Part shown: one piece after another, positions 46,401-61,115 of the stretch
How the letters are laid out: each line of letters opens with the position of its first letter
Position numbering within the stretch: position 1 is the stretch's first letter
Origin: an uncultured Ectothiorhodospiraceae bacterium
GTDB lineage: Bacteria; Pseudomonadota; Gammaproteobacteria; HK1
Length of the DNA: 62,810 nt
Assembly (NCBI GenBank): GCA_964605765.1
Contig: CAZSDY010000001.1
Location: 1 to 62,810 of the forward strand
Direction: 5' to 3'
The notes under the pieces: model-generated
Seen by the model: the letters and a program-made list of their open reading frames with translations, nothing else
Told to the model about the DNA's origin: nothing
Databases searched by the model: none
Translations under genes and position numbers: made by a program

Positions 46401-46414
46401 TTGACTTAGGTCAA
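46401..46414. promoter_or_regulatory. FNR/DNR-type box TTGAC-TTAG-GTCAA upstream of the Crp/Fnr regulator gene
   Basis: Perfect inverted half-sites, 82 nt upstream of the ATG at 46496. A TAGAAT -10-like hexamer sits at 46457-46462. Confidence 0.6.
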
Positions 46415-47263: not shown

Positions 47264-47449
47264 ATGGATATCGTCCTCTTTACCATTACCGCAATTGCGC
47301 TGTATGCATTTTCGGACTGGGTGGTACGGCGTATCGAGACGGCGCGAGGCGGCGTGATGAAGAATCGTTCACTGGTGTTCTTCGCGATTATCACGCCGTT
47401 GGCTTTACTCAGCTTTGCCCTGATACGCCACCTGCTCGCTTCGGGCTGA
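47264..47449 (+). CDS. small two-TM membrane protein
   Basis: 61 aa. AGGAGAG SD 6 nt upstream of the ATG. Two hydrophobic helices flank RRIETARGGVMKNR. Confidence 0.5.
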   Translation: MDIVLFTITAIALYAFSDWVVRRIETARGGVMKNRSLVFFAIITPLALLSFALIRHLLASG

Positions 47450-47494: not shown

Positions 47495-47508
47495 TTGACT
47501 TAAGTCAA
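47495..47508. promoter_or_regulatory. FNR/DNR-type box TTGAC-TTAA-GTCAA upstream of the heme-copper oxidase operon
   Basis: Perfect palindrome. A TTAGAT -10-like hexamer at 47531-47536 puts the box centre near -41.5 (class II geometry). 86 nt upstream of the ATG at 47594. Confidence 0.65.
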
Positions 47509-47593
47509 GGCGGGGAATGCTCGCTTCCCTTTAGATCAGCTCGCCAGGCATGGGCACGCGTCCATGACCGCTTCGGCTCTGGAGGGAAAATTG

Positions 47594-47764
47594 ATGGTGG
47601 ACGAGAAAGAACCGGTCGCCCCGACCGAAGAAGAGCGAATTCCGGTGATGCAGCAGATTCTGGATAACCCGTTTCTGCTGTTGTTTCTGGGGGTCACCAT
47701 ACCAGCGGTGCTGTACGTGATCTGGGGAGTGATAGAAGTCGTGCAGATACCCATCGGGCAATAA
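47594..47764 (+). CDS. small single-TM protein, first gene of the oxidase operon (possible subunit IIa-like accessory subunit)
   Basis: GGAGGG SD 7 nt upstream of the ATG at 47594. 56 aa with one TM helix, FLLLFLGVTIPAVLYVIWGVI. Confidence 0.55.
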   Translation: MVDEKEPVAPTEEERIPVMQQILDNPFLLLFLGVTIPAVLYVIWGVIEVVQIPIGQ

Positions 47765-47784: not shown

Positions 47785-48318
47785 ATGTCTGCAATCTCAC
47801 CGCCGGAAGTACGCGTCTGGTGGCGGACGCCGATTGGTCGCACCGAGCTCGTGTGGATGACGATAGCCTTCCTGTGGGGGCTGTTCATGTTCTTCATGAT
47901 GATCTACTGGCACGGGGCGGGCGGTCAGAATCTTTCCAACGAAGCCTATCGCACCACGCCGGAGCGTTTCGCGGCAAAAACCGACGCGATGATCGAGAAG
48001 TACAAGGTGCGCGAGGAAAACGGTTACCCCGTGGTGCACCCGCCCGCGGGCAGCGACGTGTATATATTCGGCCGGCGCTGGCAGTGGTGGCCGATTCTTG
48101 AACTGGAAAAGGGCAAGAGCTATCGCATCCACCTGACCTCGCTCGACTGGGCGCACGGCTTTTCCCTGCAGCCGGTCAATCTCAACATCCAGGTGCAGCC
48201 GGGCTACGAGATGGTCTTCAAATTGACGCCCACCGAAAGCGGTGAGTTCACCATCGTCTGCAACGAATATTGCGGCATCGGACATCATCTGATGCTCGGC
48301 AAGATCTTCGTCAAGTAG
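47785..48318 (+). CDS. heme-copper oxidase subunit II, single TM plus CuA cupredoxin domain
   Basis: 177 aa, close to ba3 subunit II in size. CuA ligand pattern WAHGF ... CNEYCGIGHHLM (H, CxExCxxxHxxM). Confidence 0.85.
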   Translation: MSAISPPEVRVWWRTPIGRTELVWMTIAFLWGLFMFFMMIYWHGAGGQNLSNEAYRTTPERFAAKTDAMIEKYKVREENGYPVVHPPAGSDVYIFGRRWQWWPILELEKGKSYRIHLTSLDWAHGFSLQPVNLNIQVQPGYEMVFKLTPTESGEFTIVCNEYCGIGHHLMLGKIFVK

Positions 48319-48339
48319 CCGGGACCAGGGGGAGTAGAC

Positions 48340-50043
48340 ATGGCAAAGCAAGACCAATATCGTATCTGCCCGGCGACCGGGCTGCGCATCTACCGATCGG
48401 CGGAAAATCTCATCAAGGCCAACGCGGTGGTCGCGGTGATCTTTCTGGCGGTCGGCGGCGTGTTCGGGGTCGGGGTGGCCTTGACCCGTTGGCCGGCGGT
48501 GCACATGCTGCCGGCCGACTGGTTCTATCTGGCGCTGACCGCCCATGGCCTGGACATCCTGGTGGTCTGGGTGATTTTCTTCGAGATCGCGATCCTCTAT
48601 TTCGCCTCCGCGGTGCTGCTCAGCTCACGTCTGGCAACGCCCAGGTGGGCTTGGGCGGGCTTCATTCTGATGCTCGTCGGCGCCGCGGTGACGAACTACG
48701 CGGTGCTCCAGGGACAGTCGAGCGTGATGTTCACGTCTTATCCGCCGATGCAAGCCGCGCCGCATTACTATCTCGGCATCGTGCTGTTCGCGGTGGGGGC
48801 GCTGATTGCCTGTTTCGTGTTCTTCGGGACCTTGGTGATCGCGAAAAACGAGCAAACCTACGAGGGATCGGTACCGCTGGTGACCTTCGGTGCGATCACC
48901 GCCGCGATCATCGCGGTGTTCACCATCGCTTCGGGGGCGATCATTCTGATCCCGACCTTCCTGTGGTCGGTGGGACTCGTCAGCCACATCGATCCGGTGA
49001 TGTACAAGGTCGTCTTCTGGGCCTTCGGGCACTCCTCGCAGCAGATCAACGTGGCGGCGCACGTCGCGGTGTGGTATGCAATCGCCGCGATCCTGTTCGG
49101 CGCCAAGCCGCTGTCCGAGAAGGTCAGCCGCGGGGCCTATCTGCTCTACATCCTGTTCCTGCAGCTTGCCAGCGCCCACCACTTGCTGGTCGAGCCGGGG
49201 ATCAGTTCGGCGTGGAAGATCTTCAACACCAGCTACGCCATGTACCTCGCGGTGCTCGGCAGCCTGATCCACGGGATGACGGTGCCCGGCTCGATCGAGG
49301 CCGCGCAGCGGGTGCGCGGATACACCCACGGCATGTTCGAGTGGCTGCGCAAGGCGCCGTGGGGCAATCCGGCCTTTTCCGGCATGTTCCTTTCGCTAGT
49401 TGGCTTCGGCGTGCTCGGCGGCATTACAGGGGTGGTGCTCGGCACTGAGCAGATCAACCTGTTCATGCACAACACGCTATACGTGCCGGGCCATTTCCAC
49501 GGCACCGTGGCGGTCGGGACCACGCTCGCCTTCATGGCGCTTACCTATCTGGTGGTGCCGTTGATCTTCCAGCGCGAGATCATCCTCAAGGGTTGGGCCA
49601 AGTGGCAGCCCTACGTGTTCGGCGCCGGGGTGATCGGGATCTCGGTATTCCAAATGGCCGCCGGGGTGCTCGGGGTGTCGCGCCGCCATTGGGATATCAC
49701 CTTCGCCGACGCACCGCTGCATTTCAGCTACCCTGATTCGGCGATCCTGATGATGAGCCTGAACGGCATCTCCGCGCTGCTCGCGTTTGTCGGCGGCGGC
49801 ATGTTCGTGGTCGTGATTGTGGGCTCGATCCTGTTCGGCAAGAGCACCAAGTCTTCCGAGGCCGCCGAAGAGAAGAAGCCGGGCGTGGCACCGCCGATCG
49901 GATCCGCCGTCGGCCAGTATGGCAGCGCGGGTGTGCACGGCATTCCGGGAACCGCGGTGCTCGTGAGCGTGTTTTTCGTCGCCTTCGTGCTCTACTATTT
50001 CGTCAACTGGAAGTACGTTTCCGAGCTCTGGCTACTGGGCTAG
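48340..50043 (+). CDS. heme-copper oxidase subunit I, B-family-like, lacking the cross-linked Tyr (candidate NO reductase type)
   Basis: 567 aa. His69, His231, His280/281 and His385/387 line up with T. thermophilus ba3 His72, His233, His282/283 and His384/386. Position 235 (ba3 Tyr237) is Gln, in GHSSQQ. Confidence 0.8.
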   Translation: MAKQDQYRICPATGLRIYRSAENLIKANAVVAVIFLAVGGVFGVGVALTRWPAVHMLPADWFYLALTAHGLDILVVWVIFFEIAILYFASAVLLSSRLATPRWAWAGFILMLVGAAVTNYAVLQGQSSVMFTSYPPMQAAPHYYLGIVLFAVGALIACFVFFGTLVIAKNEQTYEGSVPLVTFGAITAAIIAVFTIASGAIILIPTFLWSVGLVSHIDPVMYKVVFWAFGHSSQQINVAAHVAVWYAIAAILFGAKPLSEKVSRGAYLLYILFLQLASAHHLLVEPGISSAWKIFNTSYAMYLAVLGSLIHGMTVPGSIEAAQRVRGYTHGMFEWLRKAPWGNPAFSGMFLSLVGFGVLGGITGVVLGTEQINLFMHNTLYVPGHFHGTVAVGTTLAFMALTYLVVPLIFQREIILKGWAKWQPYVFGAGVIGISVFQMAAGVLGVSRRHWDITFADAPLHFSYPDSAILMMSLNGISALLAFVGGGMFVVVIVGSILFGKSTKSSEAAEEKKPGVAPPIGSAVGQYGSAGVHGIPGTAVLVSVFFVAFVLYYFVNWKYVSELWLLG

Positions 50044-50113: not shown

Positions 50114-50986
50114 ATGAGTGACACGCTGCGAGTGCTGTTTTCGGTGTTCAAGCTGCGCATCGGCTTCGCGATCATGTTGTGCACCTTGGCCGGAATCGCG
50201 ATAGCGCCCGGTGTGGGGCTGCAATCCTGGCAGGTGGCGGTACTGGCATTGGCGGTACTGATGTCTTCGGCGAGCGCCGGGGCCTTCAACCAACTCGTGG
50301 AGCGCGATCTGGACGTGCGCATGCGGCGCACCCGCCAGCGACCTTTCGTAACCGGCCGTTTTCGTGCGGGTTGGCGCTGGTACGCCGTGACTGCTCTGTT
50401 GGTGATCGTCGCGGTAGTGGCGGCGGGGTGGGCGACCAATGCCGTGGCGGCCGTGAACGTGTTGCTCGGCGCCGTGACTTACGGCATCGTCTATACGCTA
50501 TGGCTGAAACGGCGCACCCGTTTGAATATCGTGATCGGTGGGCTGGCCGGGAGTTTCGCGGTCCTCGCGGGAGCCACGGCGGTCGATGCGAACCTGGCGC
50601 CGGCGCCGCTGATCCTGGCGCTGGTGCTGTTCCTGTGGACGCCGCCGCATTTCTGGAGCCTTGCTTTCGCCTACCGCGAGGACTATGCGCGGGCCGGCGT
50701 GCCTATGCTGCCGGTGGTCGTCGGCGAACGCGCCGCGGCGCGCGCGATCTTCGCCCATACGGTGGCCCTGGTCGGGCTGTCGCTGGTACCCGTCGTATTC
50801 GGGGCCGGCTGGATTTATCTGCTCGGTGCCGGCGCCGGAGGCGCGGTGTTCGTGCGGGAAAGCTGGCGGCTGTTGCGGCATCCGTCGACCGTGTTGGCGA
50901 TGAAGAACTTCCATGCCTCCCTGATCCAGCTCGGGGCGTTGCTGGGGGCGACGATCCTCGATGCGTGGTTGATCGCAGGCGAATGA
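50114..50986 (+). CDS. ctaB: protoheme IX farnesyltransferase (heme O synthase)
   Basis: UbiA-family polytopic protein with NQLVERDLDVRMRRTRQRP and WTPPHFWSLA motifs. Confidence 0.88.
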   Translation: MSDTLRVLFSVFKLRIGFAIMLCTLAGIAIAPGVGLQSWQVAVLALAVLMSSASAGAFNQLVERDLDVRMRRTRQRPFVTGRFRAGWRWYAVTALLVIVAVVAAGWATNAVAAVNVLLGAVTYGIVYTLWLKRRTRLNIVIGGLAGSFAVLAGATAVDANLAPAPLILALVLFLWTPPHFWSLAFAYREDYARAGVPMLPVVVGERAAARAIFAHTVALVGLSLVPVVFGAGWIYLLGAGAGGAVFVRESWRLLRHPSTVLAMKNFHASLIQLGALLGATILDAWLIAGE

Positions 50987-51837
50987 TACCGGCGGGCAGA
51001 CCGTGCCGGGTGGCGGTGGGGTTATTGTCACTGGCGCTTGGTGCGCCGGCGCCGGGCGTGGCGGCCGCAACGCCTCATTCGGCGACCGCGTTCGACGCCG
51101 ATCAGGCGCTCGCAGCCAGCCGGGCGACGCTCGGCGTGCGTTTGGGCAGGCACCGCTTCACCACCCGTGATGGCCGCGAGGTCAGCTTGCGGGCGTTGGC
51201 CGCCGGCCGTCCCCTGGTGTTGAGCCTGATCTACACCGGTTGTTATCACGTTTGCAGTGTCTCGACCCGCCATCTGGGTGGTGCGGTGCGGGTGGCACGT
51301 GAAGCGTTGGGGGACACGTTCGCGGTAGCCACGGTGGGATTCGATAGCGCCGCGGATACGCCCGCGCGGATGCGCGCCTACGCGCGCCGGCAAGGCGTTG
51401 CCGACGTGCTGGACTGGGCGTTCTTGAGCGGCGACGCCGCGAACATCGCCGCGCTCGTGAAAGACGTGGGATTCAGTTACTTCCGTTCCCCCAAGGGCTT
51501 CGACCATCTGGTTCAGACGACCGTCGTCGATGCCGAGGGGCGGGTCTACCGGCAGATTTACGGCGATGCATTTCAACCGCCGGCCCTGGTCGAACCACTC
51601 AAGGAGTTGGTGTTCGGCCGCGCGGTAGATGCCTCGGCGGGCTCCGTCGAGGCCTGGACCAATCGCCTGTTGTTGTTCTGTACCCTCTACGACCCGGCAT
51701 CCGGACGCTACCGCTTCGACTACTCGATATTTGTCGGAATCGGGGTGGGGATATTGGTTCTCGGCTCGCTCGGTGGATTCTTGGTGCGCGCCTGGAACGA
51801 GAATCTTCGGCGATCGAGTCATGGCAGCCGGGGTTAG
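50983..51837 (+). CDS. SCO1/SenC-family copper chaperone with a C-terminal TM anchor
   Basis: Signal/anchor, CxxxC motif LIYTGCYHVCS and downstream His (FDHLVQTTVVDAEGRV). ATG at 50983 overlaps the ctaB stop (ATGA). Confidence 0.8.
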   Translation: MIPAGRPCRVAVGLLSLALGAPAPGVAAATPHSATAFDADQALAASRATLGVRLGRHRFTTRDGREVSLRALAAGRPLVLSLIYTGCYHVCSVSTRHLGGAVRVAREALGDTFAVATVGFDSAADTPARMRAYARRQGVADVLDWAFLSGDAANIAALVKDVGFSYFRSPKGFDHLVQTTVVDAEGRVYRQIYGDAFQPPALVEPLKELVFGRAVDASAGSVEAWTNRLLLFCTLYDPASGRYRFDYSIFVGIGVGILVLGSLGGFLVRAWNENLRRSSHGSRG

Positions 51838-51843
51838 CCGCGG

Positions 51844-53433
51844 ATGGCGGTCAACGGCGGCATTGCACGACGCGGATTGGAGCGCGTGGAAAAGGCCTTC
51901 GATGCCGCATTCACGCCTGCTTGGAACCCGCTCAGCCAGCTCGGTGCGCTCGGCTGGTTCTTCTATTGGATCGTCGCGGTCAGCGGGATTTACCTCTACG
52001 TCTTTTTCGACACCGGCATTCATGCGGCCTACGACTCCGTCGAACACTTGACGCACGCGCAGTGGTACGCCGGCGGCGTGATGCGCAGCCTCCATCGCTA
52101 CGCCTCCGACGCGATGGTGGTGGTGATGTTGTTGCACCTGACGCGCGAATTCGTCATGGGGCGCCTGCGGGGTCCGCGCTGGTTCACCTGGCTGGTCGGC
52201 ATCCCGGTGTTATGGGCGGTGTTTGCTTCCGGTATCAGTGGTTACTGGCTGGTGTGGGACCGTTTGGCGCAGTATGTCGCGGTGGCAACCACCGAGTGGC
52301 TCGACGCCTTGCCGCTGTTCGGCCAGCCCATCGCGCACAACTTCCTCCACCAGGGGACCCTCAGCGGGCGCTTTTTCACCCTGATGATTTTTATCCACAT
52401 CGGGGTGCCGCTGTTTCTGTTGTTTCTGATGTGGCTGCACATCAGCCGGCTTTCACACGCCAGGGTGAATCCGCCGCCGGGGCTGGCGCTCGGGAGCCTG
52501 CTGATGCTGGTTGTGGTGGCGCTCTGGCGGCCGGCGCTGAGTCAGGGTCCGGCCGACCTGAACAGCCTCCCGGAGGTGCTGCGCATCGACTGGTTCTATC
52601 TGTTCGCGCTGCCTCTTCAGGACGCCTTTTCGGGCGCCTGGGTGTGGATTGCGGTAGTGGCCGGAAGCTTCGCGTTGATGCTGGCGCCGTGGATGGCGCG
52701 CCGCGTACCGGCGTCGGTGGCGATCGTGAACCTGAACAATTGCAATGGTTGCGGGCGTTGCTGCGCGGACTGCCCTTACGCGGCGGTGAGCTTGCAGCCG
52801 CGCACCGATGGTAGCGCGTACAGCCACGAAGCGGTGGTGCGCGCGGACCTGTGCGCCGCTTGTGGCATGTGTACCGGCGCCTGTCCGACGGCCACGCCGT
52901 TTCGCCGCCGCGGCGAAGTGGTGGCTGGAATCGAACTACCCAACCTCCCGGTGCGCGTATTGCGCGAGCGCGTATTGAAGGCGACGCGCGCGCTGCGCGG
53001 TGATACGCGGGTGTTGATTTTCGGCTGCGAGCGTAGTGCGTCGCTCGCCGTCCTGGACGATCCCGGTATCGCGGTCATGGAGTTGCCGTGTATCGGTATG
53101 TTGCCGCCCGCGTTCATCGATTTCTTGCTCACCCGCCGGCATGTAGACGGGATCGTGCTCGGTGGTTGTCGTGAAGGGAGCTGTTTTCATCGTTTGGGAA
53201 TCGACTGGACGCTGCGGCGGATCGCCGGCGAACGGGACCCCTATCTCAGAGCGCGGGTGCCACGGGAGCGGCTCGTCGCTGCGTTCACGGGGCTGGACGG
53301 GGTGCCCGGGGTGCGCGCCGAGCTGCAAGCGTTGCACGCGCGTTTGCGGGTGCTGGGGGAACTCCGCCGGGTGTCCGGGCAGCGCGCGGATGTGCCGGTG
53401 GTGCAGGCTCAGGCGGAGCGTACCCGTGGCTAA
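51844..53433 (+). CDS. fusion protein: di-heme cytochrome b (bc-type N-terminal domain) + 2x[4Fe-4S] ferredoxin + MvhD/FlpD-like domain
   Basis: Two His pairs, each spaced 14 residues apart (SLHRYASDAMVVVMLLHLTR; FIHIGVPLFLLFLMWLHISR). CNGCGRCCADCP and CAACGMCTGACP. C-terminal FGCERSA...LPCIGMLPPAFIDFLL...GGCREGSCFH. Confidence 0.8.
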   Translation: MAVNGGIARRGLERVEKAFDAAFTPAWNPLSQLGALGWFFYWIVAVSGIYLYVFFDTGIHAAYDSVEHLTHAQWYAGGVMRSLHRYASDAMVVVMLLHLTREFVMGRLRGPRWFTWLVGIPVLWAVFASGISGYWLVWDRLAQYVAVATTEWLDALPLFGQPIAHNFLHQGTLSGRFFTLMIFIHIGVPLFLLFLMWLHISRLSHARVNPPPGLALGSLLMLVVVALWRPALSQGPADLNSLPEVLRIDWFYLFALPLQDAFSGAWVWIAVVAGSFALMLAPWMARRVPASVAIVNLNNCNGCGRCCADCPYAAVSLQPRTDGSAYSHEAVVRADLCAACGMCTGACPTATPFRRRGEVVAGIELPNLPVRVLRERVLKATRALRGDTRVLIFGCERSASLAVLDDPGIAVMELPCIGMLPPAFIDFLLTRRHVDGIVLGGCREGSCFHRLGIDWTLRRIAGERDPYLRARVPRERLVAAFTGLDGVPGVRAELQALHARLRVLGELRRVSGQRADVPVVQAQAERTRG

Positions 53434-54130
53434 GCGTGGCGGCGTGTTGCCCGGGGTGGTTCACGAATCGGGTTTGCGTCCCGCCGCGACTCGCGCGGTG
53501 GCGCAACTGCTTTGCTACATTGCCTTAGGGCTATTGCTCGGCTATTGCTCGGCTACGCCGTACCGCTATGTCGCGCCGGGTGCGGCCGTACTCAAGCTGA
53601 GCTTCGATCATGCCGGAGCGCACGTCACGCCCTGCCGGCGCCGCTCGCCCGCGGAACTGGCGGCTCTCGCGCCGAATATGCGCCAGGTGGCGCAGTGCCC
53701 GCGGGCGCGCGTTGCGGTACGGGTGGAACTCGATCTCGACGGGCGATCATTGTATGGCGCCGATTTGCCGCCCGCCGGGCTCGCCAAGGACGGGGAGTCA
53801 AGCGTCTACCAGCGCTTTACGCTGCGCGCGGGCAAGCATCGGCTGGCCATGCGCCTGCGCGATTCCCGGCGGCGGACGGGATTCGATTACGCGCGCGAAA
53901 TCGCGGTCGAGCTGGCGCCCGGTGGAGTTTTCGTGATCGACTTCAATGCCAAGGCCGGCGGTTTCCAGTTCCCGATCGCCGCACCCTTGCGTAGCGCGCC
54001 GGCGGCAGAGGCCAACCCGGCCGGGGGCATCGACCGGCGAGCGGCCGCACCGCGGCAGGCCGCAATCGACACCCCGGACGCCATGCGCATTGCATTGGCG
54101 CGTGGTCATCGGTCCGACCTTTCGAGATAA
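53426..54130 (+). CDS. hypothetical single-TM protein
   Basis: In the operon, with GTG at 53426 overlapping the preceding stop (other in-frame starts are possible up to about 53444). TM helix AVAQLLCYIALGLLLGYCS, then a beta-rich domain with two Cys and a low-complexity tail. Confidence 0.45.
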   Translation: MAKRGGVLPGVVHESGLRPAATRAVAQLLCYIALGLLLGYCSATPYRYVAPGAAVLKLSFDHAGAHVTPCRRRSPAELAALAPNMRQVAQCPRARVAVRVELDLDGRSLYGADLPPAGLAKDGESSVYQRFTLRAGKHRLAMRLRDSRRRTGFDYAREIAVELAPGGVFVIDFNAKAGGFQFPIAAPLRSAPAAEANPAGGIDRRAAAPRQAAIDTPDAMRIALARGHRSDLSR

Positions 54131-54137: not shown

Positions 54138-54533
54138 ATGGCTTTGATCGAATGGAAGGATGCATACGCTCTGGGTGTCCCGAGCGTCGACCTGGAACAC
54201 CGTCAACTCATCGACCTGATTAACGAGTTGCACGAGAGCCTGTGCGGTGATCGCGATGAATCGGCGACGATCGTCGAATTTCTCGGTGAGTTGTGTGCTT
54301 GCATCGGCGCGCACTTCGCCCTCGAGGAACGGATGATGCGCACCAGCGGTTACCCGGATTTTTCCGCGCACAAGGCCGATCACGAGCGGTTGCTCGATGA
54401 GCTTCGTGATTTGATGGATGCCTACGAGGATGGATTGTGCTGCGCTCCGGCACCAGTCTCAGCCAGTCTGGATGTCTGGTTCACGGAGCACTTCGGGAGC
54501 CACGACGCCAAACTCCATGGCAAAGTGGGATAA
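54138..54533 (+). CDS. bacteriohemerythrin (hemerythrin-like metal-binding protein)
   Basis: MALIEWKDAYALGVPSVDLEHRQLIDLIN ... HFALEERMM ... HKADHERLL ... WFTEHFGSHD: the full His/Glu/Asp di-iron ligand pattern. Confidence 0.88.
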   Translation: MALIEWKDAYALGVPSVDLEHRQLIDLINELHESLCGDRDESATIVEFLGELCACIGAHFALEERMMRTSGYPDFSAHKADHERLLDELRDLMDAYEDGLCCAPAPVSASLDVWFTEHFGSHDAKLHGKVG

Positions 54534-54756: not shown

Positions 54757-56307
54757 CTAATGGCTGGTGCCGCGCGAACGCGTGATCTTGTTCCAGACAT
54801 TGTACTTGCCGGATGGTTTGACCATCGGGATGCGTTTGACCTCGGTGAGGGTCTGTGCATCGTAGACGACGATGGCGCCGCGCATGTCCCATACGCTGAG
54901 CAGAGCGTAGCGTCCGTCGCGGGTGAACTCGACGTGCGCGGCGGTCTTGCCGGGCGCGGGGCGCAGGGTCTTGACGATCTCGAGGGTTCTCTTGTCGATG
55001 ATCTGTTCGGCATCGCGCTCGGGACCGAAAAACACGTCCACCCACGCGTAGGGCGTGTGTTCATGACTGCGCAAGAAAAACCCCGGCCCCAGCGTTTTGA
55101 TGCGCCGGATGGTCTTCCAGGTGCGCATGTCGATCACGCTCACCACCCCCTCTCTCAGGTTGGGCGTCGCGAGCACCGGGCGGCCTTGATAGTCCCAGGT
55201 GATCCCCGAGCCGAGATGCGGCATCCCCGGCAGGTCGACTTCCGCGATCTTGCGCCCGACCAGCAGGCTCACTACCTGACCGTTGCGGGTATTGCGCGCG
55301 GTGCCGATGAGCGTGTCGTAGCTTTGGTCGAAAAAGAAATCGTCGAGATAGTCGTCGAGCCGGATGCGGCGCACCGGGAAGCGTTCGCTGACCTCGGGTG
55401 CTCCTTCGATGCGGTAGTCGTGGACCGGGCCGTAGTAGACCGGGTCATCGCCGTACTGGATCTCCCAGACCTCCGTCAGGTCCTTCAGCGCGGCGATGAA
55501 ACTCTTGCGTGGCGGAGCATCGTAAACGGCGCTGACACGCGACTCGCGTCCCGCCTCGTCTCGCACCGGGACGACCTCGATCAACGAAAGATCGGTGGCG
55601 TCCAGTATCACCAGGGTGTGCGGCAGGTAGTTGCCGACCATCACGTAGCGCCCATCGCTCGAAACCGCGAGATTGCGGGTGTTGACCCCGGCGCGCACCT
55701 CTGCGACGCGCTCCAATCCCCACAGATCGTATTGTGAGATCCAGCCGTCGCGCGACGCGAAGTACACGAAACGCCCTCGCGGCGAGAATTTCGCGCCGCC
55801 GTGCAGTGCGTAGTGGGATTTGAAGCGCGCCAGCCGCTCGAAACGATCACCGTCCACAATGCTGACGTGATGATCGCCGGATTCCACGACCACGAACAGG
55901 TTAAGCGGATCGGCCGCGTACACGGGATGACGGGGAAGCTCGGCGAGCGGGTGGTAAACGGTGTGGCTCGCGCGGATTTCAGCGTTGCCCCAGGGCGGTA
56001 CCCGAGGTAGCGGGGTGTAGATGAAATCGACCAGCGCGTCGATGGCCGAGGCTGCCAGCTCGGTGCTGAATCCGGGCATCTGGGTTGCCGCAAGGCCGTC
56101 GCGAATCGCCGTGCGGGCAGCCGCGCGTTGGAGCCGTTTGAGATTTTGCGGCAACAACGCCGGGCCGATTCCACCGAGGCGATCGGCCCCGTGACAGCGC
56201 GCGCAATGCCGGGCATAGAGAGCCGGCGTATCGGGCGTTGCCGACACCGCGCCGATGCACAAGGCGGCCTGGAAAAAGAGCAGCGCGGTGGCAGGCAGGC
56301 GCGCCAC
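54757..56307 (-). CDS. nirN: NirN (cytochrome c + d1-type beta-propeller; dihydro-heme d1 dehydrogenase)
   Basis: Signal peptide, CARCHG heme-c motif, then a cd1-like propeller. Last gene after nirJ. GTG start. Confidence 0.82.
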   Translation of the reverse strand: MARLPATALLFFQAALCIGAVSATPDTPALYARHCARCHGADRLGGIGPALLPQNLKRLQRAAARTAIRDGLAATQMPGFSTELAASAIDALVDFIYTPLPRVPPWGNAEIRASHTVYHPLAELPRHPVYAADPLNLFVVVESGDHHVSIVDGDRFERLARFKSHYALHGGAKFSPRGRFVYFASRDGWISQYDLWGLERVAEVRAGVNTRNLAVSSDGRYVMVGNYLPHTLVILDATDLSLIEVVPVRDEAGRESRVSAVYDAPPRKSFIAALKDLTEVWEIQYGDDPVYYGPVHDYRIEGAPEVSERFPVRRIRLDDYLDDFFFDQSYDTLIGTARNTRNGQVVSLLVGRKIAEVDLPGMPHLGSGITWDYQGRPVLATPNLREGVVSVIDMRTWKTIRRIKTLGPGFFLRSHEHTPYAWVDVFFGPERDAEQIIDKRTLEIVKTLRPAPGKTAAHVEFTRDGRYALLSVWDMRGAIVVYDAQTLTEVKRIPMVKPSGKYNVWNKITRSRGTSH

Positions 56308-56308: not shown

Positions 56309-57493
56309 TCAGGCGCGCGCCGGTTGTGTGATTCCCCGGTTGCCGGTGGACAACCCGACCTCGGTATCGTCGAGGTAGCAGCCCGGATCCTCGGCCCATG
56401 GATCGCCCGTGAGTTGTTGGGCGCGCACCCGGGTGTTACCGCCGCAAATGTCGAGGTGGCGGCACGCGCCGCAACGACCCTTGACCGGTCGCGGCCGGGT
56501 CTTCAGGCCGGCCATCAGCGGGTCCGAGCAGTCCTCCCAGATTGTGGAGAAGGGCGTGTCGCGCACGTTCCCCAGCCGATGGTGCGACCAGAAAGTATCC
56601 GGATGCACGTCGCCCAGGTTGTCGATATTGGAGATGTGCACCCCGGACGCGTTGCCGCCCCAGCGGGCCAGGCTCGCGCGCAGGCGAGCGACCCGATCGG
56701 GCGCGAAGCGGGATCGTGCCCAATGCAGCAGATAGACCCCGTCGGCATCATTGTTGCCGGTGACGAACTCCCGCCGGCGCTCGCTCAGCACGTCGTCGAG
56801 GCAGGTCTCGAAGAGCAGGTCCATCGCCCGCCGGGTCATCGAGTGACGGGCGTCCAGGCGCCGGTTACGATTTCCGCGCCCGGCGTAGTTGAGGTGTGAC
56901 AGATAGAACTTGTCGACGTCCTCGATCTGCATCAAGGTCAGCATTTCGGGGAGTTCCGCGGCGTTGTCGGCGGTCAAAGTGAGGCGCAGCCCGACCTTGA
57001 TGCGCCGTTCGCGGCACAGTCGAACGCCTTGCAGAGCGGCGTCGAAGGCCCCCGTCTTGCGCCTGAACCGATCGTGGGTCGCACGCATTCCATCGAGGCT
57101 GATGCCGACGTAGTCGTAGCCCACCGCGCTGATCCGATTGGCCATCGGCTCGTCGATCAGCGTACCGTTGGTTGACAGCGCGACGAAGAATCCGAGCTTC
57201 TTGGCGCGCTCCGATAGGGCGAAGATGTCGCGGCGCATGAGCGGTTCTCCGCCCGACAAGACCAGCACCCGGACACCGTAGTGGTGCAGGTCATCCATGA
57301 CCGCATGAATCTCCTCGGTGCTGAGTTCCCCCGGAAAATCGCGATCGGCCGAGGTCGAGTAGCAGTGCTTGCAGGTCAAGTTGCAGCGTCGCACCAGATT
57401 CCAGATGACCACCGGGCCGGTCGCGGCCGGCGATCGGCGCGGGGGTGACTGAGCCCCGGCCAGTTCGCGGATGAAGTGCGAAACCCGAAACAT
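56309..57493 (-). CDS. nirJ: radical SAM heme d1 biosynthesis protein NirJ
   Basis: CNLTCKHCY radical-SAM cluster motif and a C-terminal SPASM-like Cys cluster (GRCGACRHLDICGG). Confidence 0.9.
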   Translation of the reverse strand: MFRVSHFIRELAGAQSPPRRSPAATGPVVIWNLVRRCNLTCKHCYSTSADRDFPGELSTEEIHAVMDDLHHYGVRVLVLSGGEPLMRRDIFALSERAKKLGFFVALSTNGTLIDEPMANRISAVGYDYVGISLDGMRATHDRFRRKTGAFDAALQGVRLCRERRIKVGLRLTLTADNAAELPEMLTLMQIEDVDKFYLSHLNYAGRGNRNRRLDARHSMTRRAMDLLFETCLDDVLSERRREFVTGNNDADGVYLLHWARSRFAPDRVARLRASLARWGGNASGVHISNIDNLGDVHPDTFWSHHRLGNVRDTPFSTIWEDCSDPLMAGLKTRPRPVKGRCGACRHLDICGGNTRVRAQQLTGDPWAEDPGCYLDDTEVGLSTGNRGITQPARA

Positions 57494-57504: not shown

Positions 57505-58059
57505 TCAGGCGGTGAGCCGAACGCCGGTCTTTTTCAGGATGCGCGTGCTGAACAGCACCTCGTGGCCACGCTGGCGCCGCCCCAGCACAGCCGCGATTCT
57601 TGCCACCCCGGCTGCCACTTCGGAGCGGCTACGGGCGTGGACCATCGCGTACAGGCTGTAGGGCCACTCGGGCGCGCGGCGCACCCGGTGGTAGCAGTGA
57701 CTGACGAAAGGCAGCGCACCGACTTCGGCACCGGCCTCGGCAACGGCTTCATCTGCGACGTCCCACACCGACATGCCGTTGGCCCGGTACCCGAGCGCAT
57801 AATGATTGGGAACCGCCGCAATGCGCCGCACGACGCCCGTGTCGAGCATCCGCTGGAAGCGTTCCATCACGTCCATTTCGCTCAGCCCGAGCCGTAGCGC
57901 GAGGTCGGCGAACGGCCGCGCAACCAAGGGCAATCCCGCGTGGGTGGCCGCGAGTAGCGCGCGATCGATGCTTCCCAGGTCGGGACGGGGGCGAGCACTG
58001 CCGCGCCCGCCCGATACGCCGGCGAGATCCGTGGGCAGAGTCCGATTACGCGGCTGCAC
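57505..58059 (-). CDS. nirH: siroheme decarboxylase subunit, NirH-like (AsnC/Lrp fold)
   Basis: LPLVARPFADLALRLGLSE ... VSHCYHRVRRAPEWPYSLYAMVHA, characteristic of NirD/L/G/H (AhbA/B). GTG start. Confidence 0.8.
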   Translation of the reverse strand: MQPRNRTLPTDLAGVSGGRGSARPRPDLGSIDRALLAATHAGLPLVARPFADLALRLGLSEMDVMERFQRMLDTGVVRRIAAVPNHYALGYRANGMSVWDVADEAVAEAGAEVGALPFVSHCYHRVRRAPEWPYSLYAMVHARSRSEVAAGVARIAAVLGRRQRGHEVLFSTRILKKTGVRLTA

Positions 58060-58074
58060 CGGGCGCTCAGGGTC

Positions 58075-58377
58075 TCATTTCAGCGAGGCATAATAGGCGG
58101 CGAGATTGGCCAGGTCGGCGTCCGACAGCGAGTCGAGGATCGGCTTCATCATCGGGTTGTTGCGGGCGCCGGACTTCATGTCCTTGAGCTGCTTGAGCAG
58201 GTACGGTTCGTTCTGGCCGGCGAGATTCGGCCATATCGCGTTGGTGGCCTTGCCGGCGGCGCCGTGACATGCGGCGCACATCCCGGACTTGGCCTTGCCC
58301 GCGGCCGCGTCGCCGCTCGCCAGCGCGCTCTGGGCGCCGATCAGCATCAACGCGGAGATGGCAAGCGTGAGTTTCAT
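58075..58377 (-). CDS. monoheme class I c-type cytochrome (c4-half/c5-like)
   Basis: Signal peptide MKLTLAISALMLIGAQSALA, CAACHG heme motif, distal Met region NNPMMKP. 100 aa. Confidence 0.88.
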   Translation of the reverse strand: MKLTLAISALMLIGAQSALASGDAAAGKAKSGMCAACHGAAGKATNAIWPNLAGQNEPYLLKQLKDMKSGARNNPMMKPILDSLSDADLANLAAYYASLK

Positions 58378-58408
58378 GTTTTCTCCTTAGGCTGCCGAGC
58401 CGTGGGCA

Positions 58409-58852
58409 TCAGACGCTCAAGTGCAAACCGACAAAGAACTCCTCGAGCTTCGGCAGACACAATACCCGGCAACCGCTGCCAGCTTCAATACCTTCGACCA
58501 CTTGCGCGATCCGTGCAGGCGTTTCACAGGCGAGCACGAACCACAGATTATAGCGGTGGTCGCGCTCGTAGTTGTGCGCGACTTCCGGGTAAGCGTTCAC
58601 CAGCGCCGCGACCTCGTCCAGGCGCTCCTGCGGCACCGCCATCGCGCACAGGCAGTAGCCGCCGCCGGCTCGTTCGATGTCAATCATGGGTCCGAACCGC
58701 GACAACGTGCCCTCGGCGAGCAGTCGGCGCAAGCGTGCGAGGAGATCGGATTCACTGATCCGAAGCGCCCGTGCCACGGCCAGATACGGTTGCTCGGTGA
58801 TCGGGATCCCGTCCTGGAGCCGGTTCAGGATCGCGCGGTCCAGATCATCCAT
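58409..58852 (-). CDS. nirG: siroheme decarboxylase subunit, NirG-like
   Basis: MDDLDRAILNRLQDGIPITEQPY ... VAHNYERDHRYNLWFVLA. Its ATG at 58852 overlaps the nirDL stop by 8 nt. Confidence 0.82.
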   Translation of the reverse strand: MDDLDRAILNRLQDGIPITEQPYLAVARALRISESDLLARLRRLLAEGTLSRFGPMIDIERAGGGYCLCAMAVPQERLDEVAALVNAYPEVAHNYERDHRYNLWFVLACETPARIAQVVEGIEAGSGCRVLCLPKLEEFFVGLHLSV

Positions 58853-59897
58853 TACCCGAACGCTCCGCGGGGCTCGGCGCGTAGCGTGCTCCACGCTGCC
58901 GGAAGCAGCGGGTGCTGAACAAGACCTCGCGCCGGAAGGCCGCGAGGCCGGCATCGGCGGTGGCGGATTCGAGCACTCGCCACGCTTCCGCGCGGCGGCG
59001 CGCGTGCACCATGCAGTACAGGTTGTAGGGCCACTGGGGCGGGCTGCGGCGGCGTGCATAGCACAGCGTAACCCCCTCACGGGTCGCGAGGCGGCGCCCG
59101 AGCACATGGACCTCGGAGTCCGGCACATCCCACACCGTCATCGCGTTTTCGGTCAGGCCGAGGCTGCGGTGCCGCACCACCGCGCCGATGCGCTTGATGG
59201 CGCCGCCGGCGAGCAGGCCCGCGATGGCGTCGATGACCGACGCCTCGCTAGTGCCCAACGCGTGCGCAAGCACCGCATAGGGGCGCGCCACGAGCGGCAG
59301 TCCGTCCTGAAGCACCGCGAGCAGGCACCGGTCGAAGTCGCTCAGCGCGCCGTTCCAGGGCGCGGGCACGTTCGGCCTGTTGGCCCGGGAATCGGCCGTG
59401 TGGCGGAAGCCGAGATCGATGTGGTAGGCGCGCACCATCGGCAGATCGATGGGTGTGGTGGCAGTGCGCGCCTCGATTCCGGCAAGCACCCCATTGATGG
59501 CTTGACGGTTGCGCGCCGTGAGTACGAACCACAAATTGTAACGATGCTCGCGTGCGTAGTTGTGGTTCACCTCGGGGTAGGAGTTGACGATCGCGGCGGC
59601 TTCCTCGATTCGAGGAGGGGCGATCGTGAGCGCCGCCAGTGTGCTCGCACCGCAGGCGCGTGGTTCGAGCACCGGGCCGACCCGGCTCAGGATCTCACGG
59701 GCGTGAAGGTCGACGAAGGTCTCGATCACCAGGTGCTCGGAGGCACCCAACGCCTCGGCCAGAACCCGGAAAGGTCGCTGTTCGAGTGCCAGATCACGTT
59801 GTGAAGCATCGAGCAGGCGGCGTTCGAAGGGCGTCAACGCGACACCCCGCGGGTGCGAAGCGCCGGCGAACGGCTCGCGGGGAAGTTGTTCAGTCAT
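58845..59897 (-). CDS. nirDL: siroheme decarboxylase NirD-NirL fusion
   Basis: Two tandem AsnC-like modules (VNHNYAREHRYNLWFVL and TLCYARRRSPPQWPYNLYCMVHA). ATG at 59897; an alternative GTG lies at 59921. Confidence 0.85.
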   Translation of the reverse strand: MTEQLPREPFAGASHPRGVALTPFERRLLDASQRDLALEQRPFRVLAEALGASEHLVIETFVDLHAREILSRVGPVLEPRACGASTLAALTIAPPRIEEAAAIVNSYPEVNHNYAREHRYNLWFVLTARNRQAINGVLAGIEARTATTPIDLPMVRAYHIDLGFRHTADSRANRPNVPAPWNGALSDFDRCLLAVLQDGLPLVARPYAVLAHALGTSEASVIDAIAGLLAGGAIKRIGAVVRHRSLGLTENAMTVWDVPDSEVHVLGRRLATREGVTLCYARRRSPPQWPYNLYCMVHARRRAEAWRVLESATADAGLAAFRREVLFSTRCFRQRGARYAPSPAERSGNG

Positions 59898-59924
59898 CGT
59901 CTCCGGCGCCCCCGGCCGCACGGC

Positions 59925-61115
59925 TCACAGGCCGATCCTGTGGGCGCGATCGGTGAAAAAGATCCCGCTCGGACTTTCCGCCGGGAGTGACGACACTCGG
60001 CGATAGCTTCGGGTGTCGTAGACGAGCACCCGGTTGTCGTCGCGCACCGAGACCCAGACCTGTTCGCCGCGAGGCGCGAACTCCATGTGCAGCACCGCCT
60101 TGCCGGGTTTGAGAGTCCGCTCGACACGCAGACTTTCGACATCGATGACCTGGATCGTGTCGTTGAGCGGATGCGCGAAGTTGACCCACACCTTGCGTCC
60201 GTCCGGCCGGGCCATGACGAACACCGGTTGTCCGTGCACCGCGATATGCGCCCGGATGCTCCAGTCACGCCGATTCACCACCAGCACCTGGTGATGGCCG
60301 ACCGCCGGCACGAGCGCGTAGTCACCGGCTATCGCCCAGCCTTCCAGATGCGGCATCTTGTAGACCGGCAACGCCCGTTCACCGCGCCCATAGCCATCGA
60401 GAATGCGACGCACACCGCGCTCGAGATGCCACAAATCGAGCAACGCCATCCCGTCTTCGCCGAACAGCCCGGCGACGTAGTAGCGTCCGTCGGGCGTGAT
60501 CAGCCCATCATACGGGAGGCGTCCGACGTTTTCGAAGCGGCGTACCTCGGGCCGGGCCGGGTCCTGCATGTTCAGCACCCAGATCTCCCCGGCATCGTAG
60601 AGGCTGAACACGAAAAGCTGACCCGGCGCATCCACCAGTCCGACCACCTTGGAACGTTTGCCCTCGTTGCCGTAAGTCGCCGGAATCTCCGCCACCAGTC
60701 GCAGCGTGTCGGCGGCGAACACCTTGACCCCTCCGGGAACGTAGTTCGAGACCGCCACCAGCGACCCGTCCTGCGATATCGCGCCGCCGATGGCGTTGCC
60801 TCCCTGCACCACGCGGCGCGCAATGGCGCCACTCAACATATCGATCTTGGTGAGCCCACCGTCACGCCCGAACACGTAGGCATAGCGCTCGTCACGCGAA
60901 TACACCACCGTCGCGTGCGACAGATCGCCGAGCCCGTCCACCTGGGCGAGTTCCGTGCGGTGGCTGGTATCGACAATCAACACCCGCCCCGCCGTACGTT
61001 CAATGACGATCCCGAGATCACCGGTCCCGCGCAGCGTGGCACAGCCGCCAAGCACGAGGCCCGGCAGCAGCACGCCCGCGCACCAGAATCGCGAATAACG
61101 CCCGCTGTTTCTCAT
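59925..61115 (-). CDS. nirF: NirF (d1-type propeller heme d1 biosynthesis protein), lipoprotein form
   Basis: ATG at 61115 overlaps the nirC stop (ATGA). Lipobox LVLGGC. cd1-like beta-propeller without a heme-c motif. Confidence 0.85.
   Translation of the reverse strand: MRNSGRYSRFWCAGVLLPGLVLGGCATLRGTGDLGIVIERTAGRVLIVDTSHRTELAQVDGLGDLSHATVVYSRDERYAYVFGRDGGLTKIDMLSGAIARRVVQGGNAIGGAISQDGSLVAVSNYVPGGVKVFAADTLRLVAEIPATYGNEGKRSKVVGLVDAPGQLFVFSLYDAGEIWVLNMQDPARPEVRRFENVGRLPYDGLITPDGRYYVAGLFGEDGMALLDLWHLERGVRRILDGYGRGERALPVYKMPHLEGWAIAGDYALVPAVGHHQVLVVNRRDWSIRAHIAVHGQPVFVMARPDGRKVWVNFAHPLNDTIQVIDVESLRVERTLKPGKAVLHMEFAPRGEQVWVSVRDDNRVLVYDTRSYRRVSSLPAESPSGIFFTDRAHRIGL

What the first reader, a model, noticed from the sequence alone, without database searches (positions are those of the whole stretch)
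49030..49044. Active-site Tyr of the His-Tyr cross-link is replaced by Gln (GHSSQQ) while all six His ligands are kept at ba3-like positions
I counted residues directly. The candidate ligands are His69, His231, His280, His281, His385 and His387. The known T. thermophilus ba3 ligands are His72, His233, His282, His283, His384 and His386, so the alignment is nearly ungapped. The residue four positions after the first CuB His (ba3 Tyr237) is Gln235, codon CAG at 49042-49044, preceded by Gln234. The cross-linked Tyr is required for O2 reduction chemistry in A and B family oxidases. Its loss with retention of the metal ligands is the hallmark of the NO-reducing offshoots. The HH-x3-E-P-G segment (AHHLLVEPG) resembles the ba3 HHQFADPG.
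Basis: partly seen in the sequence, partly recalled or inferred. Interest (0 to 1): 0.8.

Follow-up and report, generated by a model that had tools for sequence, protein, structure and literature searches.

The report
Gln-for-Tyr oxidase relative: eNOR-type NO reductase

Summary
ORF 48340-50043(+) is a 567-aa heme-copper oxidoreductase subunit I. It has His69/231/280/281/385/387 and GHSSQQ at residues 230-235. Gln235 (CAG, 49042-49044) aligns without gaps to Tyr237 of Thermus ba3.

Gln at this site is the published diagnostic of the eNOR family (Hemp & Gennis 2008; PMC8756737, Table A4). The Rhodothermus marinus member reduces NO but not O2 (PMC11214002).

GHxxQQxN is present in 120/120 close metagenomic clusters, 81/81 species-level orthologues and 118/120 distant relatives (Thermus, Chloroflexi, Armatimonadota). 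It is also present in a haloarchaeal homologue.

These sequences form one clade. Its sister clade is archaeal and keeps the Tyr (GHxxQY).

No Tyr sits at the C-family helix-VII position; Leu274 is there.

Subunit II keeps every CuA ligand, and the K-path residues are largely kept.

The gene lies in a conserved cassette preceded by an FNR/DNR-type box. The cassette is: small TM protein, subunit II, subunit I, heme O synthase, SCO1, a cytochrome b6-like/FeS/FlpD fusion, an unknown ORF and hemerythrin. Heme d1 (nir) biosynthesis genes are adjacent.

Verdict: a new member of a known kind, usually misannotated as "cbb3-type oxidase". The conserved accessory module is the only part I found undescribed.

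The parts
46401..46414 (.). FNR/DNR-type palindromic box TTGACTTAGGTCAA, 82 nt upstream of the regulator's likely start codon
46496..47206 (+). Crp/FNR-family transcription regulator. The likely true start is ATG 46496, which has a GGGGGAAGGA ribosome-binding site. There is no N-terminal Cys cluster, so it looks DNR/NnrR-like (inference).
47264..47449 (+). Small 61-aa two-TM protein, found in 33/80 related loci
47495..47508 (.). FNR/DNR-type box TTGACTTAAGTCAA, 56 nt upstream of the operon's first conserved gene. A box of this type lies upstream in 52/74 related loci.
47564..47764 (+). 66-aa single-TM protein conserved in 76/80 loci. It is a possible small third subunit, comparable to ba3 subunit IIa (inference).
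47785..48318 (+). Subunit II. It is a cupredoxin with a complete CuA ligand set (H..CNEYCGIGHHLM) and an invariant Glu21 that corresponds to the ba3 Glu15(II) K-path entrance.
48340..50043 (+). Subunit I of an eNOR-type heme-copper NO reductase. Low-spin heme ligands are H69 and H387. The high-spin heme ligand is H385. Metal-B ligands are H231, H280 and H281.
49030..49044 (+). H231-S-S-Q234-Q235. H231 is a metal-B ligand and Gln235 occupies the position of the cross-linked Tyr (ba3 Y237, cNOR Glu).
50114..50986 (+). Heme O synthase (CtaB/CyoE), present in 59/80 loci
50983..51837 (+). SCO1/SenC copper chaperone (CxxxC), present in 77/80 loci
51844..53433 (+). Fusion of a cytochrome b6/b-like N-terminal di-heme domain, extra TM helices, 2x[4Fe-4S] and an FlpD/MvhD-like domain. 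Present in 73/80 loci; role unknown.
53426..54130 (+). Conserved protein with no family match and one predicted TM helix. Present in 71/80 loci.
54138..54533 (+). Bacteriohemerythrin, present in 65/80 loci
54757..56307 (-). NirN (dihydro-heme d1 dehydrogenase; 6rtd, E = 3e-188)
56309..57493 (-). NirJ, the heme d1 radical-SAM enzyme
57505..59921 (-). NirH, a small cytochrome c (58075-58377), NirG and NirDL (siroheme decarboxylase subunits)
59925..61427 (-). NirF (6tv2, E = 4e-163)
61454..62287 (-). NirE / uroporphyrinogen-III C-methyltransferase
62590..62603 (.). Third copy of the box (TTGACCAAAGTCAA), upstream of the nir gene block near the contig end

Best explanation
Genes 47785-50043 encode the two core subunits of an eNOR-type nitric oxide reductase (2 NO + 2 e- + 2 H+ -> N2O + H2O). 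Inferred path, by homology with ba3: a periplasmic donor reduces CuA in subunit II. Electrons then pass to the low-spin heme (His69/His387) and on to the binuclear site. That site is the high-spin heme (His385) plus metal B (His231, His280, His281). Gln235 replaces the His-cross-linked Tyr. The site therefore lacks the redox-active Tyr that supplies the fourth electron for O2 reduction, while the two-electron NO chemistry remains possible. Gln235 sits where cNOR and qNOR place the Glu that ligates FeB. Its amide could weakly ligate metal B or hydrogen-bond to it or to bound (hypo)nitrite-level intermediates (inference). The pocket is also more polar than in ba3: Gln234 for Val236, Asn237 for Trp239, Ser133 for Phe135, and Ala279 for Phe281. 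The cytoplasmic K-path is largely retained (subunit II Glu21, Thr314, Tyr246, His311, Ser308). Protons may therefore come from the cytoplasm, which would make the reaction electrogenic (a prediction, not shown). An FNR/DNR-type box upstream and the adjoining heme d1 genes indicate expression together with nitrite reduction at low O2.
For: Sequence and alignment. B-family fold: AF2 model with pLDDT 90.7 and pTM 0.92; best Foldseek matches are 7deg_A and ba3 at TM about 0.8, with no cNOR/qNOR among the top 50. GHxxQQxN conservation. Monophyletic Gln clade spanning Pseudomonadota, Bacteroidota and Halobacteria, with homologues carrying the same motif in Thermus and Chloroflexi; the sister clade keeps Tyr. 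CuA ligands and subunit II Glu21 are invariant. K-path mapping uses the ba3 path given in PMC3141039. Context: NirN, NirJ, NirH, NirDL, NirF and NirE are adjacent. nir genes lie next to the homologue in about 17/80 loci and on the Thermus thermophilus NAR1 plasmid, beside nirS and a multicopper oxidase domain protein. An FNR/DNR-type box is found in 52/74 loci against 0.03 expected per locus. Literature: Gln is diagnostic of eNOR (PMC8756737); R. marinus eNOR reduces NO and not O2, and a K-channel is predicted (PMC11214002).
Against: No activity, metal content or heme type can be measured here. I could not retrieve the sequence of the biochemically characterised R. marinus enzyme, so the link to it runs through the family signature and shared taxa. 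Murali et al. say many eNOR operons carry CtaA; this cassette has CtaB but no recognisable CtaA. The ba3 K-path residue Tyr244 is Val242 here, so the path is not identical. I could not read model coordinates, so the Gln235-to-metal geometry and the positions of Tyr246, Tyr270 and Tyr299 are inferred from helix register only.
Confidence: 0.82

Rival explanations
1. It is still an oxygen reductase. A Tyr from another helix (Tyr299 in helix VIII, Tyr270 in helix VII or Tyr246 in helix VI) substitutes for the missing Tyr, as happened in the C family.
For: Tyr299 is invariant in the Gln clade and absent from the sister clade and the B family. The cassette includes a hemerythrin, an O2-binding protein type.
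Against: The C-family Tyr position, 6-7 residues before the HH motif, is Leu/Ile274. Tyr270 and Tyr246 are also conserved in the Tyr-retaining clades (Tyr270 in the sister clades, Tyr246 in all clades), so they are not compensatory. Tyr299 lies 9 residues to the P side of Ser308. Ser308 corresponds to ba3 Ser309, which sits at the level of Tyr237 (PMC3141039). By helix register, Tyr299 is therefore about 13 A from the site (inference). Murali et al. report no migrated Tyr in models of these families, and R. marinus eNOR does not reduce O2 (PMC11214002).
Confidence: 0.04
2. It is an eNOR-fold enzyme whose physiological role is not respiratory NO reduction. Possible roles are NO detoxification or scavenging under micro-oxic conditions, or turnover of another small substrate. 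The cytochrome b/FeS/FlpD protein and the hemerythrin would then provide a dedicated electron-input or sensing route.
For: The accessory cassette is conserved in 65-77 of 80 loci. nir genes are adjacent in only about 17/80. The reported R. marinus turnover is low (0.68 NO per second; PMC11214002).
Against: In this window the operon abuts the heme d1 biosynthesis genes and shares their FNR/DNR-type box. Detoxification and respiration use the same chemistry, so this differs in physiology rather than mechanism.
Confidence: 0.12
3. It is a decaying or non-functional oxidase paralogue in which the Tyr codon has drifted.
For: None beyond the absence of the Tyr.
Against: The ORF is intact. 168 of 567 positions are invariant across 81 species, including all six His ligands. 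The motif is conserved across phyla and both prokaryotic domains. The operon and its regulatory box are conserved.
Confidence: 0.01

Closest known systems
eNOR family of heme-copper NO reductases (Hemp & Gennis 2008; Murali et al. 2024, PMC11214002). Characterised member: Rhodothermus marinus DSM 4252. The 'cytochrome a1-like' protein of Magnetospirillum magnetotacticum also belongs.
   Same: B-family-like subunit I with six His ligands. Gln at the cross-link Tyr position. CuA subunit II encoded immediately upstream. K-channel-like residues including the Ser309 equivalent. Genomic association with nir genes. The sequence sits in a Gln clade that also holds a haloarchaeal sequence, and homologues from other taxa reported to carry eNOR (Thermus, Chloroflexi, Proteobacteria) carry the same motif.
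   Different: No CtaA is recognisable in this cassette. The low-spin heme has His/His ligation, not the His/Lys variant reported for some eNORs. The proteobacterial cassette adds a cytochrome b6-like/FeS/FlpD fusion, an unknown protein and a hemerythrin; I found no mention of these in the held eNOR papers or in a full-text search for eNOR with hemerythrin. No direct comparison with the R. marinus sequence was possible.
B-family oxygen reductases (Thermus thermophilus ba3, 1EHK/1XME/3S8F; Aquifex aeolicus oxidase, 7DEG)
   Same: Best sequence matches (E about 1e-42 to 1e-44) and best structural matches (TM about 0.8). Same ligand spacing, same CuA subunit and same single K-type proton path.
   Different: Tyr237 to Gln, Val236 to Gln, Trp239 to Asn, Phe135 to Ser, Phe281 to Ala, Thr312 to His, Tyr244 to Val. 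Identity is only 24-30%.
Archaeal GHxxQY clade (Thermoproteota and Hodarchaeales MAG proteins P0130, P0132, P0136, P0143)
   Same: Sister group in the NJ tree at 34-43% identity. It shares Glu82, Gln234, Asn237, Tyr270 and His311 with the eNOR clade.
   Different: It keeps the active-site Tyr, so it is presumably an O2 reductase. It lacks the eNOR-only residues Ser133, Ala279, Asn296 and Tyr299.
cNOR / qNOR (for example P. aeruginosa cNOR, G. stearothermophilus qNOR)
   Same: Same overall reaction. The cross-link Tyr is likewise replaced, and the replacement residue (Glu there, Gln here) is at the same position, four residues after the first metal-B His.
   Different: [quoted passage not shown] They use a Glu ligand to FeB, have a cytochrome c subunit or a quinol site instead of CuA, and lack a conserved cytoplasmic proton channel. 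Neither appears among the sequence hits or the top 50 fold hits.

Membership tests
eNOR | Heme-copper subunit I fold with the six canonical His ligands | tested here: met
   AF2 model with pLDDT 90.7. Foldseek TM about 0.8 to ba3 and 7deg.
eNOR | Gln at the position of the cross-linked active-site Tyr (ba3 Y237) | tested here: met
   Q235 by ungapped phmmer alignment and MAFFT alignment. The diagnostic is stated in PMC8756737 (section 2.7.1 and Table A4).
eNOR | Related to B-family rather than C-family oxidoreductases | tested here: met
   PDB sequence hits, fold hits and NJ tree.
eNOR | CuA-containing cupredoxin subunit II | tested here: met
   H...CNEYCGIGHHLM aligns to the ba3 CuA domain. 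The ligands are invariant in 77 orthologues plus the query.
eNOR | Conserved K-channel-like polar residues, including the ba3 Ser309 equivalent | tested here: met
   Ser308, His311, Tyr246 and subunit II Glu21 are invariant; Thr/Ser314 is conserved; Tyr244 is replaced by Val242. The ba3 path is taken from PMC3141039.
eNOR | Shares homology and the active-site motif with sequences from taxa reported to carry eNOR | tested here: met
   NJ tree: one Gln clade holding the proteobacterial sequences, P0121 and the haloarchaeal Natrarchaeobius P0128. Same GHxxQQ motif in the Thermus thermophilus NAR1 plasmid homologue at 46.5% identity and in Chloroflexi and Armatimonadota relatives.
eNOR | Direct similarity to the biochemically characterised R. 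marinus DSM 4252 enzyme | not tested
   The sequence was not retrievable. The genome-contig scan returned only the 80 closest loci. The Thermus-seeded search listed no Rhodothermus.
eNOR | Heme a/As in both heme sites; CtaA in many operons | tested here: inconclusive
   CtaB is in the cassette. No CtaA was recognised among the cassette genes. Heme type is not testable in silico.
eNOR | NO reductase activity without O2 reductase activity | not testable with these tools
   Biochemistry is required. Only context supports it: nir and heme d1 genes, and the FNR/DNR-type box.
B-family O2 reductase | His-Tyr cross-link (Tyr four residues after the first CuB His) | tested here: not met
   Gln235.
C-family (cbb3) O2 reductase, the name NCBI gives these genes | Cross-link Tyr supplied from helix VII, 6-7 residues before the HH motif; cytochrome c subunits | tested here: not met
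   Leu274 is at that position. Subunit II is a CuA cupredoxin. There are no cbb3 hits in PDB searches.
cNOR / qNOR / nNOR | Glu at the Tyr position as the fourth FeB ligand | tested here: not met
   Gln235, not Glu. No cNOR or qNOR among the sequence or fold hits.
sNOR / bNOR | Asn at the Tyr position | tested here: not met
   Gln235. [quoted passage not shown]
gNOR | One metal-B His replaced by Asp; subunit II without CuA ligands | tested here: not met
   All three metal-B His are present. CuA ligands are present.

The most novel reading that the evidence does not exclude
In Pseudomonadota, eNOR is not a two-subunit enzyme acting alone. It would be the core of a conserved eight-gene module placed under FNR/DNR control. 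The module holds a small TM subunit, CuA subunit II, subunit I, CtaB, SCO1, a cytochrome b6-like/2x[4Fe-4S]/FlpD fusion, an unknown membrane protein and a hemerythrin. In this reading the cytochrome b/FeS/FlpD protein supplies a dedicated quinol-linked or cytoplasmic electron route, or carries out an O2-independent heme or cofactor maturation step. The hemerythrin would sense or buffer O2 or NO. I found no mention of this module in the held eNOR papers. A second, smaller point concerns the order of evolutionary change. The polar remodelling of the pocket (Val236 to Gln, Trp239 to Asn, Ala85 to Glu, Thr312 to His) is shared with a Tyr-retaining archaeal sister clade, so it preceded the loss of the Tyr.
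Probability: 0.3. Interest if true: 0.55.

Novelty: new member of a known kind. Interest (0 to 1): 0.3.

Why it matters
The Tyr-to-Gln change is the recognised signature of eNOR, so it adds nothing to enzymology as such. Its practical value is in annotation and ecology. Recognising them as N2O-producing NO reductases changes the predicted denitrification capacity of abundant sediment and soil Gammaproteobacteria and Alphaproteobacteria, such as Woeseiaceae and Steroidobacteraceae. No eNOR structure appeared among the PDB sequence or fold matches. The metal in the B site, the role of the Gln pair and whether the enzyme is electrogenic therefore remain open, and the conserved accessory genes offer new handles for experiments.

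Tried and rejected
1. Single-sequence AlphaFold gave pLDDT 44 and was discarded. The MSA-based model was used instead.
2. I could not obtain model coordinates. Distances from Gln235 and the Tyr residues to the active site were therefore not measured, and I relied on helix register and the published ba3 K-path.
3. I tried to reach the R. marinus eNOR sequence three ways. The genome scan returned only the 80 closest loci, all at 64% identity or more. The Thermus-seeded protein search listed Thermus, Armatimonadota, Chloroflexi and Burkholderiales but no Rhodothermus. The supplements of both eNOR papers are not held.
4. The ba3 proton-channel PNAS papers are not held. PMC3141039 was used instead.
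5. I considered sNOR, because the SenC and heme O synthase neighbours recall the norSY-senC cluster. I rejected it because the diagnostic residue is Gln, not Asn.
6. I considered whether 54757-56307 is NirS. It is NirN (6rtd, E = 3e-188, against NirS at 5e-34). No nirS structural gene lies within the window, and the contig end (62288-62810) holds no long ORF.
7. Literature searches for an eNOR cryo-EM structure, or for eNOR together with hemerythrin, found nothing.
Full report
**1. The observation**

Translating 48340-50043(+) gives a 567-aa protein. Pfam assigns it to COX1, heme-copper oxidase subunit I, with E = 1.5e-63.
- His residues lie at 69, 231, 280, 281, 385 and 387.
- Bases 49030-49044 read CAC TCC TCG CAG CAG, which is H231-S-S-Q234-Q235.
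- phmmer against all PDB chains returns B-family oxidases as the best matches: 7deg_A at 8e-44 and Thermus ba3 1ehk/1xme at about 4e-42.
- Around the site the alignment has no gap: FWAFGHSSQQINV aligns with FWWTGHPIVYFWL.
- This places H231 on H233, Q235 on Y237, H280/281 on H282/283, and H385/387 on H384/386.

Every factual statement in the finding is correct.

**2. Conservation and chance**

GH-S-S-Q-Q is present in all 120 closest metagenomic protein clusters, at 74-94% identity.

I kept 80 loci at 64-77% identity. They come from Woeseiaceae, Steroidobacteraceae, other Gammaproteobacteria, many Alphaproteobacteria and one Bacteroidota MAG.
- Across these 80 plus the query, Q234, Q235, N237 and all six His are invariant.
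- About 30% of all positions are invariant at this depth, so this result alone is weak evidence.

More distant sequences settle the question.
- A 53%-identical representative has GHMSQQ and a haloarchaeal (Natrarchaeobius) protein at 41% has GHGTQQ.
- The Thermus thermophilus NAR1 plasmid homologue at 46.5% has GHGAQQ.
- 118 of 120 relatives of the Thermus protein have GHxxQQxN. They come from Thermus species, Armatimonadota, Anaerolineae/Caldilineales and Burkholderiales.

**3. Phylogenetic placement**

I built a neighbour-joining tree on 481 well-aligned columns.
- All Gln-type sequences form one clade.
- The sister clade is archaeal (Thermoproteota and Hodarchaeales MAGs). It has GHxxQY, so it keeps the Tyr.
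- Next comes an odd HxxHY clade, and then the ba3-like B family.

Column comparison separates two sets of residues.
- Only about 20 positions are invariant in the Gln clade and differ from both the sister clade and the B family. They include Q235 (Y237), S133 (F135), A279 (F281), N296 (H298) and Y299 (V300).
- E82, Q234 (V236), N237 (W239), Y270 (F272) and H311 (T312) are shared with the Tyr-retaining sister clade.

The pocket therefore became polar first, and the Tyr was lost afterwards, once, at the base of the clade.

**4. Could another Tyr substitute?**

- The C-family solution places a helix-VII Tyr 6-7 residues before the HH motif. That position is Leu/Ile274 here.
- Tyr246 (ba3 Y248, K-path) and Tyr270 are also conserved in clades that keep the active-site Tyr (Tyr246 in all clades, Tyr270 in the sister clades). 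They are therefore not replacements.
- Tyr299 is specific to the Gln clade. It lies nine residues to the P side of Ser308 on helix VIII.
- Ser308 corresponds to ba3 Ser309, which is at the level of Tyr237 in the published K-path (PMC3141039). By helix register Tyr299 is roughly 13 A away, near the heme-propionate and exit region. This is an inference.

I could not read model coordinates. Murali et al. report no migrated Tyr in their models of these families (PMC11214002).

**5. Structure**

A single-sequence AlphaFold run failed, with pLDDT 44. With a 76-sequence alignment (A2) the model reached pLDDT 90.7 and pTM 0.92.

Foldseek against the PDB gives 7deg_A and ba3 entries first, at TM about 0.8. 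A-family oxidases follow. No cNOR or qNOR is in the top 50. No eNOR entry appears among the sequence or fold matches.

**6. Partner subunit and proton path**

The upstream gene 47785-48318 encodes a cupredoxin. Its H...CNEYCGIGHHLM segment aligns to the ba3 CuA domain with all ligands. These ligands are invariant in 77 orthologues plus the query.

The ba3 K-path runs Glu15(II), Thr315, Tyr248, Thr312, Tyr244, Ser309, heme a3 hydroxyl, Tyr237 (PMC3141039). It maps here as follows:

| ba3 residue | Residue here | Conservation |
|---|---|---|
| Glu15 (subunit II) | Glu21 (subunit II) | invariant |
| Thr315 | Thr/Ser314 | conserved |
| Tyr248 | Tyr246 | invariant |
| Thr312 | His311 | invariant |
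| Tyr244 | Val242 | Tyr lost |
| Ser309 | Ser308 | invariant |
| Tyr237 | Gln235 | invariant |

This matches the statement that eNOR keeps a K-channel like that of the B family, including the Ser309 equivalent (PMC11214002).

**7. Genomic context**

The gene sits in a cassette that is conserved across the 80 loci.

| Gene | Loci with it (of 80) |
|---|---|
| 66-aa single-TM protein | 76 |
| Subunit II | 80 |
| Subunit I | 80 |
| Heme O synthase | 59 |
| SCO1/SenC | 77 |
| Cytochrome b6-like + 2x[4Fe-4S] + FlpD fusion | 73 |
| Protein with no family match | 71 |
| Bacteriohemerythrin | 65 |

The same cassette is on a Defluviimonas plasmid. [quoted passage not shown]

Immediately downstream in the window, on the minus strand, lie heme d1 biosynthesis genes.
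- They are NirE, NirF (6tv2, 4e-163), NirDL, NirG, a small cytochrome c, NirH, NirJ and NirN (6rtd, 3e-188).
- nir genes adjoin the cassette in about 17/80 loci.
- In Thermus the homologue lies beside genes annotated as nitrite reductase and multicopper oxidase domain protein.

A palindromic TTGAC-N4-GTCAA box occurs three times in the window, all in this region.
- The sites are 56 nt upstream of the operon (47495-47508), upstream of the adjacent Crp/FNR-family regulator (46401-46414) and upstream of the nir block (62590-62603).
- With one mismatch allowed, the window has 6 matches, three of them exact, against 1.0 expected.
- 52 of 74 related loci have TTGA[CT]-N4-[GA]TCAA within 350 nt upstream of the first cassette gene. 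The background is 0.03 per locus.

This points to FNR/DNR-type control, as expected for a denitrification enzyme.

**8. Identification**

Gln at the cross-link Tyr position is the published diagnostic of the eNOR family. It contrasts with Tyr in O2 reductases, Glu in cNOR/qNOR and Asn in sNOR (PMC8756737, Table A4, after Hemp & Gennis 2008).

eNOR is related to the B family and has a CuA subunit. The R. marinus enzyme reduces NO at 0.68 per second and does not reduce O2 (PMC11214002).

All the sequence-level defining features that I could test are met.
- Not tested: direct similarity to the R. marinus protein, because the sequence was not retrievable.
- Inconclusive: heme type. CtaB is present but no CtaA was recognised.
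- Not testable here: enzyme activity.

Membership of the alternative families fails on their defining residue. This applies to B-family O2 reductase, the C family, cNOR/qNOR/nNOR, sNOR/bNOR and gNOR.

**9. Mechanism**

*Shown by homology:* the ligand set for CuA, for a low-spin heme, and for a high-spin heme plus a three-His metal-B site; the absence of the redox-active Tyr; and a largely intact cytoplasmic K-path.

*Inferred:*
- Electrons flow from a periplasmic donor to CuA, then to the low-spin heme, then to the binuclear site, where two NO are coupled to N2O.
- Without the Tyr the site cannot supply the fourth electron for O2 reduction.
- Gln235 is at the position of the FeB-ligating Glu of cNOR. 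It may weakly ligate or hydrogen-bond the metal or the intermediates.
- Protons may come from the cytoplasm, which would make the reaction electrogenic.
- The identity of metal B (Cu or Fe) is unknown.

**10. Verdict**

The feature belongs to a family named in 2008 and biochemically validated in 2024. It is therefore a new member of a known kind, and interest is modest.

Three things are worth carrying forward.
- These genes are systematically misannotated as cbb3 oxidases.
- PDB holds no detectable eNOR entry.
- The proteobacterial cassette has conserved accessory genes that I found described nowhere in the held eNOR papers. They are the cytochrome b6-like/FeS/FlpD fusion, the unknown protein and the hemerythrin.

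Noticed in passing
window 51844-53433 (+); homologues in 73/80 loci, e.g. L082 12414-13994: A fusion protein is co-transcribed with the eNOR genes. It has a cytochrome b6/bc1-like N-terminal di-heme domain (PDB cytochrome b6 6rqf_I, 5e-17), extra TM helices, two [4Fe-4S] motifs and an FlpD/MvhD-like domain. Its function is unknown. It could be a quinol-linked electron module or a maturation factor.
   Followed up: partly
window 53426-54130 (+) and 54138-54533 (+): A 234-aa protein with no Pfam or NCBIfam match (71/80 loci) and a bacteriohemerythrin (65/80 loci) close the cassette. In Thermus the equivalent position holds an Rrf2 regulator and a ScdA_N/DUF542 protein, i.e. the N-terminal domain of ScdA.
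   Followed up: partly
window 47564-47764 (+): A 66-aa single-TM protein sits directly upstream of subunit II and is conserved in 76/80 loci. It has no family match. It may be a small third subunit like ba3 subunit IIa.
   Followed up: partly
window 46401-46414, 47495-47508, 62590-62603: Three exact TTGAC-N4-GTCAA palindromes lie upstream of the Crp/FNR regulator, the eNOR operon and the nir block. The long ORF 46169-47206 overcalls the regulator, whose likely start is ATG 46496.
   Followed up: yes
window 54757-62287 (-): A heme d1 biosynthesis block is present (NirE, NirF, NirDL, NirG, cytochrome c, NirH, NirJ, NirN), but no nirS structural gene lies within the window. The contig ends 207 nt after the third box.
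   Followed up: partly
proteins P0130, P0132, P0136, P0143: An archaeal sister clade (Thermoproteota and Hodarchaeales MAGs) has GHxxQY. It keeps the Tyr but shares the polar pocket residues Glu82, Gln234, Asn237 and His311 with eNOR. It looks like an intermediate state between the B-family oxidases and eNOR.
   Followed up: partly
proteins P0178, P0187, P0214, P0270: A further heme-copper clade (one member from a Dehalococcoidia MAG) has one metal-B His replaced by Tyr (LYH instead of HH). The proximal His of the high-spin heme is also replaced by Tyr (PGYFH), while the HxxxY motif is kept. This is an unusual ligand set that I did not identify with any named family.
   Followed up: no
L081 (Thermus thermophilus NAR1 plasmid 4) 8444-10668: The Thermus denitrification megaplasmid carries an eNOR-type pair (GHGAQQ) beside genes annotated as nitrite reductase and multicopper oxidase domain protein. 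My simple motif searches did not find the usual LTxHG and GHxH heme-ligand motifs in it. This may be the altered low-spin heme ligation reported for some eNORs.
   Followed up: no
window 1-44500: The rest of the contig carries ordinary chromosomal genes: mutL, leuA, an acetolactate synthase-type TPP enzyme, proS, type IV pilus/T2SS-type PilB/PilC-like genes, coaE, zapD and a GH3 glycosidase. The window equals a whole 62,810-nt NCBI contig (P0295).
   Followed up: partly
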